11,037 nt of DNA, taken from the NCBI GenBank assembly GCA_964510165.1, contig CAZEBC010000133.1:1-11037 (forward strand), written 5' to 3'. The position numbers were made by a program. The DNA comes from an uncultured bacterium (lineage in GTDB: Bacteria > Abyssobacteria > SURF-5). Shown piece after piece: positions 1-3,000 of this stretch. Position 1 is the first letter of the stretch. Every line of letters starts with the position of its first letter.

Positions 1-3000
1 CGAAAAAAAGTTGACTTTTCCGGCGATGGAAAATATAATTTTCGGTAGCCGCATTCTCCACCCAACTCGGAAAGAGGGGGTAATCTCCGTGTTCGACCCC
101 GGCCTGTGGATAGAGGACCAATACCTGGTGCTCGAACGACACCGCGGCCGACGCTGGATTCTGTATGTAGTTCAAGACCGCATATCGGAAACCCTGTTCG
201 CCGTCAAGGCGCCTGCATTTGTCCTGAGCCCCGACACCGCCGCGCGATTCATTCGCAAGGCCAAGAACTGGATCAACCTGGGCGAATGCGAGCAACTGGC
301 TAATGCCTATCTGCTGAAAGAATTCAACTCCGTTCCGCATCTCCTTGTCGAGTACGCCGATGGCCCAAGCCTCGCCGACATCCTCAGCTCGCATCCGGGA
401 CGAGCGCTGCCGATACGCCAGACCGTCGCCTTCATGAGACAACTCATCAGCGGGATGAAGTTCCTCCATAAGGTAAGCCTCCCCGGCGAGAGTCACGGCG
501 CGATCCATGGCAATCTGACCCCGCGCAATATCCTGACCAAGGCCGGGAACATCAAGATTACCGATATCGGCATGGCGGACGCCCTGCGGCGGCCGACCAT
601 TACAAGCGCAGACCTTCTCCCCGGAGAGGCCCTCTATACGGCGCCCGAGCGACTCGAGAAATCCGCCAAAGCAAGCGAATTGACCGATGTCTACTCCTTC
701 GGAGCCGTCATGTACGAGGTCGCGACGGGCACCGTGCCGAAGACTTGTCAGAGTTCGTCTGATCCGCTCTGCGAAATCGTGAGCATCTCGATCGCATCCC
801 CTCGCATGCGCAATCGCTCGTGCCCCCGCTGGCTCGAAGAGATGATCATGAAGTGTATGGCCCCGGAGCCTGAAAAGAGGTTTCAGAGCTTCGAACAGAT
901 TGACGCCTTCCTTCGCGAGGTCGTCAATACGGACGAGCTTCCCCCCGACGACGGAGCCGGCAAGGAACCGCCGAAGACCTCGCGCGTTGCGCGTATACGC
1001 GGCGCGGCCAAGAAGGAATCGCGGCGCCTCGAGCACTATTACCTCGGCGTCGAACATCTGATGCTCGGCCTCATAGAAGAAGAAGAAAGCGTAGTCGTGA
1101 GCTGTCTTGGAGACGCCGTCAGTGCCGACCAGCTTCAGTCCGAGATCATTTCCTGGCTCCCCAAGGGCGAGGGCCCCTGGTATTGGGAGGGCATAAGAAA
1201 GACTCCGCGCTACAAGAAGGTCATGCGAATAGCCCGCAAGATCAAGCGCGGCCTCGAAGAGGACCGTATGCTGCCCCAACACATCCTTCTGGCAATACTC
1301 GAGGAAGGCCGCAACATCCCCGCTCGAGTCCTCAAGAACCTTAAGGTGGACGTGAAGGCCGCATCCGCCAGCCTGCGCCGAGAGCTGCGCCGCAACCGCC
1401 CGGCGGTTTTCGTCAAGGACGCTGACTCGCCCGCCGCAGTCTGCACCTGCCGGGTGACGTGCACAACGGGCATCCCCGGCAACATCCCCTATGTCGGCCA
1501 TGACGCGGAACTCCGGATGGTCGAAAGCCTCCTGCTCGACGATAAAAAGAGCATCATGCTCATCGGAGAGCCGGGTGTCGGCAAGACGGCCTTCCTGAGG
1601 AACCTCGATTGCATAATTTCAGACACGGTGACCAAGACCGGCGCGGAATACGGAGGCATCCATCGCCTGCGCAATGCCGCCCTCCTGGCAACTTCCGAAC
1701 GGGAAGACGACGTGTTCTCGGGCCTGTCGAATGTGTTGAAATCGCTGGTTGAATCGAAGGCGGTGCTCGTGATAGAGGACCTGCCCGTGATGCTCGACCC
1801 GGGTATCAGAGTGTCCCCACTTGACCTGTCGGCCTTGCTCAGCAACTACGTCGTCTCAAGAGGCCTGCTGCTGGTCGCTACGGCCACGCCCGCCGCGTAC
1901 CTGGCATGTGAATCCGGTCACAGAAACCTCCTTGACTTCCTCGAGGTGGTCCGCTTGCCCGAACCGTCGGAGGAAGAACTCACCCAGATACTCTCCTCCG
2001 CGCGGGAGGTGCTGGAATCGGAGTATTCGGTAAAGGTCGTTGACGAAGCCCTTGTCGCGGCCGCCGCGTTCTCCCGTGACATTAAGGACCGCGCGCAGCC
2101 AGCCAAAGCGCTCGAATTGCTTGAACTCGCCTGCGCCTCCGCCAGGAGGTCGTCATCCAAGTACTCGACGGGAGCAATCCTCGTTAATGCGAAACACCTG
2201 GAGGACTCGTGCTCGGAGTATTTCAAGATAGCCTCGACTCCGAGTCGGGAATCTGAATAAAGGCCCCATATGCCCGAAAGCGAGAAAATAGTCGTCGAGA
2301 TCATGAACGGCCCCGAAGACGGGCGAACCATTTCCTGCCAGGAATTCCCGATTACAATCGGGAGGGCCACCGACAACGTCGTTCATCTGCCCTACGACCA
2401 CCTGATTTCACGCTACCATGCCAGGGTTCTGAGGTCGGAAGGTCAAATCCTTCTCCACGACCTCAACAGCACCAATGGCACCTACATAGGAAAACGGAGG
2501 ATTTACGATGAGACGCCGGTCGAGGCCTATCGAATATTTCGCGTCGGCTCAACTCACCTCATGCTGAAACGCGGCTCCGCAAAGCAAAGCCTGAAGGAAT
2601 AGCCGGCGAACGCCAATGAGCAAGAGAACCGAAAAGGCTGCCCACGAATCGCAGGAGTACCGCCGCAAGGTGCCGTGCGTCAATCACCACAAGATTGTCG
2701 CGGTCACCCGTTGTGAGGTCTGCGGCAACCCCATCTGCCGGGAGTGCATCAAATATTATGAAGGCGCCCTCATCTGCAGCGCCGAATGCCTGGTCAAGAA
2801 GACCTCCGAACAAGAGGGACGCATCTCCGCCGATGATAGACATCAGCGAAAGGTGCGGGAGCGAAAGCTTGACCGGGCCGTGACCATAGGATTGTGGTCC
2901 GCTCTGGGCTTGGTCCTCGCCGCTGTCGGTATATTCGTATACCTGAAAATGACAGACCAGTCCGGCGAGAAAATGTGGGAGTTCAAGAAGGCCGGCGGTT

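What a model noticed while it worked through the whole genome (the two positions that open the first line are those of the whole stretch)
89..2260. Ser/Thr kinase fused to a ClpC-type N-domain and AAA+ module
A 723-aa protein joins a Hanks-type kinase domain lacking the catalytic Asp (a pseudokinase) to Clp N-terminal repeats and a ClpC-D1-like AAA+ domain with intact Walker A but altered Walker B; an FHA protein gene follows. It is a lineage-wide pseudokinase-Clp adaptor architecture.
Evidence so far: Pfam Pkinase + Clp_N (50); full-length orthologs 46-58% in 9 of 9 relatives (134). 30 homologs at E<=1e-40, 26 with kinase + Clp_N + AAA domains (214). In those 26: HRD Asp replaced in 25, Walker A GxxGxGK kept in most, Walker B mostly xIEDLP (216). 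Paper search gave 2 unrelated papers (213).
(Added by a program. Inside this text positions count along the whole contig: contig position 1 is position 1 of the stretch shown here. "Call 12" and the like, gene names such as g00115 and contig names such as C1 are that model's own, and its searches are not shown. The text may have been shortened before it was handed on; [...] marks where a part breaks off. The agent that wrote the report below was given it as the finding of a first reader that could run no searches.)

Follow-up and report, generated by a model that had tools for sequence, protein, structure and literature searches.

The report
Dead kinase-Clp fusion docking FHA adaptor
This conserved protein joins an apparently inactive kinase to an apparently inactive piece of a protein-unfolding machine, and its best-kept surface is predicted to bind the small phosphate-reading protein encoded next door, which points to an undescribed way for bacteria to steer phosphorylated proteins to Clp-type machines.

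Summary
ORF 89-2260 is a pseudokinase + Clp N-domain + one degenerate AAA+ domain, with a full-length ortholog in 9 of 9 family relatives, always followed by a standalone FHA gene. Both enzymes look dead: catalytic Asp replaced in 28/30, Walker B Glu absent in 32/32, both Arg fingers kept in 1/32. The N-domain is the best-conserved part and keeps one phosphate pocket (T372-P373-R374). The Clp part groups with M-domain-less Clp ATPases, not host ClpC (AU p=0.012). That N-domain type recurs across phyla, on intact two-ring Clp ATPases, on two other kinase types, alone, or fused to FHA, mostly beside an FHA carrying G-x-x-D-G (35/36 versus 0/46 other FHAs). A complex model puts FHA Asp17 into the T-P-R pocket (0.79, best control 0.01) and leaves the phosphothreonine-binding residues outside the interface. 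Best reading: a catalytically dead scaffold that docks an FHA adaptor, descended from an undescribed kinase/FHA/Clp module that may deliver phosphothreonine proteins to an unfoldase. Binding is modelled, not measured; cargo is unknown.

The parts
11..39 (+). sigma-70-type promoter TTGACT-17-TATAAT
   Evidence: 11-12/12 match upstream of the gene in 10 of 10 genomes, 13/500 shuffles reach 10/12
74..80 (+). SD-like GAGGGGG before the GTG start
   Evidence: sequence
89..2260 (+). 723-aa fusion: pseudokinase - Clp N-domain - single degenerate AAA+ domain
89..928 (+). Hanks-type pseudokinase domain (aa 1-280): beta3 Lys 29/29, DFG Asp 28/30 kept; Gly loop replaced (invariant W23), alphaC Glu to Ala/Ser 29/29, HRD to HGN-type (nt 506-529)
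977..1393 (+). Clp N-domain (aa 297-435), most conserved part (66% mean pairwise identity vs 53-55% kinase, 44% AAA); pArg1 Glu replaced by Q/H
1202..1210 (+). T372-P373-R374: phosphate subsite of the ClpC pArg2-type pocket; predicted docking site of FHA Asp17
   Evidence: R 31/31, T 30/31; contacts in complex model
1475..2164 (+). degenerate Clp D1-type AAA+ domain; Walker A at 1565-1588 kept, catalytic Glu, Arg fingers and pore Tyr lost; no M-domain, no D2
2270..2602 (+). standalone 110-aa FHA protein with canonical pThr-binding residues (G31-R32, S47, H50, N69)
2309..2323 (+). FHA G14-P-E-D17-G18 hairpin, signature of the partner FHAs
   Evidence: 35 of 36 partner FHAs vs 0 of 46 other FHA rows; interface
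2616..4418 (+). B-box zinc finger - TM - PQQ-type beta-propeller protein
   Evidence: adjacent in 9 of 9 relatives
4429..5553 (+). B-box - TM - TPR protein; invariant cytoplasmic T34 and C-terminal ITHF
   Evidence: in the operon in 7 of 9 relatives, elsewhere in G005, not found in G006
5550..6806 (+). rhomboid protease with C-terminal TPR; GASA and AHIGG motifs present
   Evidence: in the operon in 7 of 9 relatives, elsewhere in G005, not found in G006

Best explanation
The protein is a catalytically dead scaffold. Neither the kinase nor the single AAA+ domain is expected to turn over ATP, and without a D2 ring or ClpP loop it cannot unfold or degrade. Its working surface is the Clp N-domain, whose T372-P373-R374 pocket (normally a phosphoarginine phosphate site in ClpC) binds Asp17 of the FHA protein encoded next door as a phosphate mimic. 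The FHA keeps its phosphothreonine site free, so it bridges Thr-phosphorylated proteins to the fusion, which holds or sequesters them rather than processing them. It descends from a wider kinase + FHA + Clp N-domain module in which the same docking pair is attached to intact Clp ATPases or to active kinases. Shown by sequence: motif losses, conservation, gene order, co-occurrence of the two signatures. Modelled: the FHA-N-domain contact. Inferred: pThr cargo, and that the cargo or anchor is the co-transcribed B-box membrane proteins of an envelope-signalling unit with a rhomboid (about 0.25 for that last step).
For: Motif losses while all 10 nearest non-family kinase hits and 4 kinase-ClpN paralogs keep HRD. 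N-domain most conserved. Related M-domain-less Clp ATPases share HYYLGVEH, W-x-G..TPR and loss of the second GTEH; fusion + host ClpC clade rejected, p-AU 0.012. FHA gene adjacent to 10 of 12 Clp ATPases with a 22-33 aa D1-D2 spacer (1 more at 4.4 kb, 1 at a contig edge), 20 of 23 Anaerolineae ClpN-TCAD9/APH kinase rows, plus one natural FHA-ClpN fusion and one standalone N-domain between FHA and kinase genes. 36 deltaproteobacterial rows with the same HYYLG motif lack aligned TPR (35 clearly, 1 ambiguous) and have no FHA neighbour (28 none, 8 contig edge). G-x-x-D-G in 35/36 partner FHAs, 0/46 other FHA rows (45 distinct) of five genomes. In trans: such an FHA was found in 4 of 5 genomes whose TPR N-domain has no FHA neighbour and 0 of 5 genomes with the TPR-less type. 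G010 lacks both fusion and partner FHA. Complex model: 0.79 vs best of 3 controls 0.01; mark reached by 116 of 157 solved and 2 of 215 mismatched pairs (roughly, own alignments); runs agree in at least 75% of contacts, partner pLDDT at least 84; lowest-error pairs are FHA D17 with T372, P373, R374, Y375. MecA binds the same pockets of ClpC (PMC12583610, passages).
Against: No binding or activity was measured. Solved acidic-ligand/ClpC N-domain complexes (MecA, pArg) may have helped the model, although no entry is shared between the 46 FHA hits and the 60 of 67 N-domain hits shown. Only the isolated N-domain was folded with FHA; access to the pocket in the full-length protein was not checked. 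A gap-42 Clp group keeps TPR in 7 of 7 rows with an FHA neighbour in only 1, and the one genome tested had no G-x-x-D-G FHA. 22 Eremiobacterota N-domains have no FHA neighbour (only in trans, 3 genomes tested). The five negative genomes are incomplete MAGs with 2 FHA hits in all. Only 6 of the 12 intact Clp loci show a kinase in the fetched flank. E322 is invariant (30/30) but not in the predicted interface, and McsB is present, so pArg binding stays open. Loci were picked with an HYYLGxEH pattern, so that motif is invariant by construction; related genomes are not independent. G006 keeps fusion and FHA without the TPR protein or rhomboid.
Confidence: 0.62

Rival explanations
1. Phosphoarginine reader or sink, like mycobacterial ClpC2: the kept pocket binds McsB-made pArg proteins and replaces the pocket that host ClpC has lost.
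For: E322, T372, R374, R413 nearly invariant. McsB found in G000, 8 of 8 family relatives searched and G010, directly upstream of clpC. Host ClpC reads NPQ instead of TPR in 11 of 11 while keeping pArg1. ClpC2 binds pArg with one kept site (PMC13345244, passages).
Against: T31-equivalent is Val in 30/30. G010 has NPQ without the fusion. Does not explain the FHA neighbour, the D-G hairpin or their joint loss. Not exclusive: pArg could compete with the FHA for the pocket.
Confidence: 0.15
2. One domain keeps atypical activity: a HER3/JAK-JH2-like ATP-binding or weak kinase, or an ATP-sensing AAA+ switch, and that activity is the main function.
For: beta3 Lys 29/29, catalytic-loop Asn 22/30, DFG Asp 28/30; Asn for Asp in 19/30 as in HER3/JH2 (PMC4718504, passages); Walker A Lys 31/32.
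Against: Gly loop lost with invariant Trp; the adenine-packing Val position varies to E/H/Q/T; HRD Arg to Gly 29/30; catalytic Lys lost; no Walker B Glu in 32/32; both Arg fingers in 1/32. Nucleotide binding without catalysis is compatible with the best explanation.
Confidence: 0.12
3. Regulator or poison subunit of host ClpC that co-assembles through its D1-like domain.
For: ClpC N+D1 is the best named match; a dead D1 would poison a ring.
Against: AAA domain is the least conserved domain (44%) while host ClpC is nearly invariant; different ancestry; unlinked to mcsB-clpC. Co-assembly itself was not tested.
Confidence: 0.07
4. A decaying relic of a broken kinase-Clp operon.
For: Both active sites lost, D2 missing, long branches.
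Against: Intact single copy in 10 of 10 genomes across 8 genera at 46-58% identity, no internal stops, conserved promoter, invariant surface residues.
Confidence: 0.02

Closest known systems
ClpC with MecA / phosphoarginine recognition (B. subtilis, S. aureus)
   Same: Clp repeat N-domain followed by D1; partner predicted in a pArg pocket, which MecA also uses (PMC12583610 passages).
   Different: No M-domain, D2 or ClpP loop; dead D1; only the pArg2-type pocket kept; partner is an FHA, not MecA; kinase domain in front.
Mycobacterial ClpC2
   Same: Non-proteolytic protein with a ClpC-like N-domain keeping one phosphate pocket; an acidic residue of a partner chain can occupy it (PMC13345244 passages).
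   Different: ClpC2 is a DNA-binding repressor without kinase or AAA domain and without an FHA partner.
M. tuberculosis MviN pseudokinase - FhaA
   Same: Bacterial pseudokinase working with an FHA protein as a scaffold (PMC12599244 passages).
   Different: There FHA binds a pThr on the pseudokinase tail; here it is predicted to dock phospho-independently on a Clp N-domain with the pThr site free. None of the seven pseudokinase families in that review is described with Clp domains ('Clp' occurs only in two reference titles).
T6SS PpkA - Fha - ClpV
   Same: Kinase, FHA and Clp ATPase in one system (recalled; listing of PMC3953482 seen).
   Different: No secretion genes in the neighbourhoods examined; ClpV model score 64 vs cut-off 885; Fha is not known to me as a ClpV adaptor.
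NTP-dependent conflict systems with inactive kinases, ClpN, FHA or TCAD9 domains (Kaur et al. 2020)
   Same: Inactive S/T/Y kinases, APH-like kinases, FHA and ClpN repeats occur as parts (PMC7159879 passages); several intact loci found here carry kinase-TPR, SIR2 or Hsp70/Hsp90-like neighbours.
   Different: No vWA-MoxR or GTPase core here; no ClpN-FHA pair in the passages seen; supplements not read.

Membership tests
Active Hanks Ser/Thr kinase | Bilobal kinase fold | tested here: met
   Pfam; Foldseek TM by target 0.75-0.86 to PknB/Stk1/PknA
Active Hanks Ser/Thr kinase | Catalytic HRD Asp and Lys | tested here: not met
   Asp in 2 of 30; Lys in 0 of 30 (one Arg)
Active Hanks Ser/Thr kinase | Gly-rich loop and alphaC Glu | tested here: not met
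   R-G-R-R-W type loop, W 28/28; Ala/Ser 29/29
Active Hanks Ser/Thr kinase | beta3 Lys and DFG Asp | tested here: met
   29/29 and 28/30
Pseudokinase | No phosphotransfer in vitro | not testable with these tools
   inferred from motifs only
ClpC (class I Hsp100) | Clp repeat N-domain + D1 | tested here: met
ClpC (class I Hsp100) | M-domain, D2 ring, ClpP-binding loop | tested here: not met
   protein ends 17-35 aa after D1; NCBIfam ClpA/ClpB scores 85-89 vs cut-offs 993-1232
ClpC (class I Hsp100) | D1 Walker B Glu, Arg fingers, pore-loop Tyr | tested here: not met
   Glu 0/32; both Arg 1/32, at least one 11/32; no aromatic at the aligned pore position 0/32
ClpC (class I Hsp100) | Two pArg pockets (E32, E106) | tested here: not met
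   E32-equivalent 30/30; E106-equivalent Q/H 32/32; pocket assignment of E32/E106 from PMC12583610, of T81/R83 recalled
ClpC (class I Hsp100) | Descent from host ClpC | tested here: not met
   p-AU 0.012, quick tree, long branch caveat
FHA domain (2270-2602) | pThr-binding G-R, S-x-x-H, N-G | tested here: met
   invariant in 8 of 8 orthologs aligned
Clp adaptor (MecA-like), applied to the FHA | Binds the Clp N-domain | tested here: inconclusive
   model supports, not shown: 0.79 vs 0.01
Clp adaptor (MecA-like), applied to the FHA | Delivers substrate for unfolding/degradation | not testable with these tools
   intact relatives keep Walker motifs and Arg fingers, several a [ILV]GF loop; no assay
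T6SS PpkA/Fha/ClpV | T6SS structural genes nearby | tested here: not met
   neighbourhoods in 10 genomes; genome-wide T6SS search not done

The most novel reading that the evidence does not exclude
An undescribed phosphothreonine-degron pathway in bacteria and at least one archaeon: Hanks kinases mark proteins, a dedicated FHA reads the pThr and plugs an Asp hairpin into the phosphoarginine-type pocket of a dedicated M-domain-less Clp ATPase, which unfolds the cargo or feeds it to ClpP. The ClpN/FHA pair is a portable docking module reused on kinases, and this fusion is its doubly dead decoy or scaffold form, fixed in a whole family.
Probability: 0.4. Interest if true: 0.88.

Novelty: new variant of a known kind. 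Interest (0 to 1): 0.78.

Why it matters
Known Clp adaptors (MecA, ClpS, MdfA, McsB) and the pArg degron do not read Ser/Thr phosphorylation directly. An FHA that bridges phosphothreonine to a Clp N-domain would give bacteria a phospho-degron reader comparable in logic to eukaryotic F-box adaptors, with a two-residue interface that can be tested at once (FHA Asp, N-domain Arg). The fusion itself is a rare double pseudo-enzyme kept single-copy under a near-consensus promoter across a family. The portable pocket/hairpin pair could also serve as a handle for targeted degradation tools.

Tried and rejected
Longer starts at 11/26: rejected, they overlap the conserved promoter. Relic/artefact: rejected. 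Origin from host ClpC: rejected. 'Fusion replaces the pocket lost by host ClpC': weakened, G010 has the loss without the fusion. Profile search of 1.84 billion representatives found no further full-length member beyond the family among the best 150; three unrelated active kinase + two-ring Clp fusions appeared. Word-based search with one M-less N-domain gave only 3 hits. ESM Atlas gave only generic Clp_N clusters. One search used a wrong-frame query and is not used. A mixed alignment for the natural FHA-ClpN fusion misaligned and nothing was folded from it. No RNA holder listed. The careful kinase tree did not finish; quick trees are cited. Earlier scan notes were not available. Literature: searches (terms on ClpC/pArg; pseudokinase+Clp+FHA; B-box+rhomboid; TCAD9/Clp/FHA; FHA domain+Clp ATPase+Clp_N; MecA mimic; phosphothreonine+FHA+Clp protease+adaptor; MviN/YukC) gave no description of this fusion or of an FHA-ClpN pair; the library lacks most subscription papers, and supplements were not read (those of PMC7159879 and the 42-family kinase classification cited in PMC12599244 could list such proteins). 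An earlier count said Asp lost in 30/30; the correct count is 28/30.

Full report
Observation. The ORF 89-2260 encodes 723 aa with kinase, Clp_N and AAA-lid matches and a ClpC N+D1 match over residues 297-706. A near-consensus promoter lies 38-51 nt upstream in 10 of 10 genomes, which fixes the start at 89. One full-length ortholog (46-58%) occurs in each of 9 same-family genomes and none in the same-class genome G010 (96% complete) or 20 distant genomes. Named close homologs are Ca. Abyssobacteria/Hydrogenedentota. A profile search over 1.84 billion representatives added one full-length member and fragments among its best 150. The AlphaFold2 model has pLDDT 79 and pTM 0.80, suggesting a defined domain arrangement.

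Both enzymes look dead. In 34 family sequences the catalytic Asp position holds D in 2 of 30 (N 19, G 7), the HRD Arg is Gly in 29/30, the alphaC Glu is Ala/Ser in 29/29 and the Gly loop is replaced with an invariant Trp; the beta3 Lys (29/29) and DFG Asp (28/30) remain, so nucleotide binding is not excluded (compare HER3/JH2, PMC4718504 passages). The ten nearest outside kinases all keep HRDxKPxN. In the AAA domain Walker A Lys is kept (31/32), but the catalytic Glu is absent (0/32), both Arg fingers remain in 1/32, the pore Tyr is gone, and there is no M-domain or D2. Mean pairwise identity over 27 full-length rows: N-domain 66%, kinase 53-55%, AAA 44%.

The N-domain keeps one pocket. E32 marks pArg2 and E106, T7, R9 pArg1 of ClpC, and MecA binds both pockets (PMC12583610, section 9 read whole plus passages; T81/R83 as the pArg2 phosphate ligands is recalled). 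The fusion keeps E322 (30/30) and T372-P-R374 (30/31, 31/31) and has lost the E106 equivalent. Host ClpC, next to mcsB, shows the opposite (NPQ for TPR in 11 of 11), but so does G010, which lacks the fusion.

Origin. The best-scoring Clp relatives are about 750-aa ATPases without an M-domain that share HYYLGVEH, W-x-G..TPR and loss of the second GTEH; a clade of fusion + host ClpC is rejected (p-AU 0.012, quick tree, long branch). Scanning genomes and metagenomes for this N-domain (best 80 of 239 and 80 of 251 confirmed loci; 132 distinct locus rows after dropping duplicates, short and X-containing rows) showed it on intact two-ring Clp ATPases (Chloroflexota, Acidobacteriota, Armatimonadota, Ca. 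Methanoperedens) with a standalone FHA adjacent in 10 of 12, at 4.4 kb in 1 and untestable in 1; 6 of the 12 have kinase genes nearby, mostly kinase-TPR proteins of the subfamily that contains the pseudokinase (100 SH-aLRT clade). The same N-domain is fused to a TCAD9/APH-like kinase in Anaerolineae (FHA adjacent in 20 of 23), fused directly to an FHA (L109), standalone between FHA and kinase genes (L084), and fused behind an intact PknB-like kinase with an FHA gene following (L289). Deltaproteobacterial members lack TPR and an FHA neighbour (36 rows; 28 none, 8 edge). Against the pattern, a gap-42 group keeps TPR with an FHA beside 1 of 7, and 22 Eremiobacterota N-domains have no neighbour. 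The HYYLGxEH motif is invariant by construction of the scan; TPR and the FHA link are not.

The partner FHA has a signature. G-x-x-D-G occurs in 35 of 36 partner FHAs (the miss is N-terminally truncated) and 0 of 46 other FHA rows from five genomes. Three partners that lost pThr residues and have no kinase neighbour still keep it (L053, L139, L140). In trans, such an FHA was found in 4 of 5 genomes whose TPR N-domain has none adjacent and in 0 of 5 incomplete genomes with the TPR-less type. G010 lacks it.

Complex model. From I expected FHA Asp17 to sit in the T-P-R pocket and then folded the window's N-domain with its FHA (the expectation was written to the notebook only after the result). 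Score 0.79, best of three controls 0.01; the mark was reached by 116 of 157 solved and 2 of 215 mismatched pairs, roughly applicable with own alignments; runs agree in at least 75% of contacts, partner pLDDT at least 84. The lowest-error pairs are Asp17 with T372, P373, R374 and Y375; the interface also uses Y317-Y318 and the G362-W366 loop, all highly conserved, while FHA R32, S47, H50 and N69 are not listed in it. No FHA-ClpN entry is shared between the 46 FHA hits and the 60 of 67 N-domain hits shown in PDB, but MecA- and pArg-bound ClpC structures exist and may have helped. This supports binding; it does not show it.

Operon. Fusion, FHA and B-box/TM/propeller are adjacent in 10 of 10 genomes; the B-box/TM/TPR gene and rhomboid-TPR follow in 8 of 10, lie elsewhere in G005 and were not found in G006; none has an ortholog in G010. 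The link of these membrane proteins to the FHA is inference only.

Mechanism and verdict. Most likely (0.62) the fusion is a dead scaffold that docks the FHA adaptor and holds pThr proteins, descended from a kinase/FHA/Clp module. Rivals: pArg sink (0.15), residual activity (0.12), ClpC regulator (0.07), relic (0.02). Nine literature searches and passages of PMC13345244, PMC10149685, PMC9604228, PMC7159879, PMC8195603, PMC7286690, PMC12599244, PMC4718504 and bioRxiv 10.1101/2024.03.02.583065 (PMC12521514: term search, no hits) showed no description of the fusion or the pair; supplements were not read. It works like adaptor-mediated Clp targeting but is not a ClpC and not an active kinase: a new variant of a known kind, interest 0.78.

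Noticed in passing
L037-L047 (clpC of 11 genomes): All 11 ClpC proteins of this class, each beside mcsB where the contig allows, read NPQ in place of the usual TPR, i.e. 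one pArg pocket appears lost class-wide.
   Followed up: partly
L030:7703-9043, L031:7603-8907, L032:5948-7264, L048:5892-7219: A second, apparently active kinase-ClpN fusion (HRD intact, degenerate N-domain without TPR; split in G009) in 4 relatives, beside CHASE2-cyclase-kinase and FHA-GAF-cyclase genes in some.
   Followed up: partly
P0144, P0170, P0244: Active Ser/Thr kinases fused to complete two-ring Clp ATPases, one with cyclase-like and CHAT domains.
   Followed up: no
L093:7980-9950 and 22 similar Anaerolineae rows: ClpN-TCAD9/APH-like kinase with HGDLHLGN motif, preceded by a G-x-x-D-G FHA gene; looks like a conserved lineage system of its own.
   Followed up: partly
L068, L072, L097, L159 (Eremiobacterota): Standalone 127-136 aa Clp N-domain proteins near hfq/uvrC, with the partner-type FHA encoded elsewhere in 3 of 3 genomes tested.
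   Followed up: partly
L021:8658-9407 and orthologs; G000 contig C10: A PHP-domain gene and a secreted protein with a GspD-N0-like domain lie divergently upstream of the fusion in 8 of 9 relatives, but on another contig in G000; the PHP protein could be a phosphatase.
   Followed up: no
window 4429-5553: The B-box/TPR protein ends in an invariant ITHF(D/E) motif, possibly a C-terminal docking signal.
   Followed up: no
L290:6065-7191: ClpN + short C-terminal domain gene followed by a zinc-ribbon-FHA with GPEDG, near an Hsp90-like gene.
   Followed up: no
window 6834-8807, 9395-10546: CocE/NonD family hydrolase and a UxaA-type dehydratase subunit; not conserved next to the operon.
   Followed up: no
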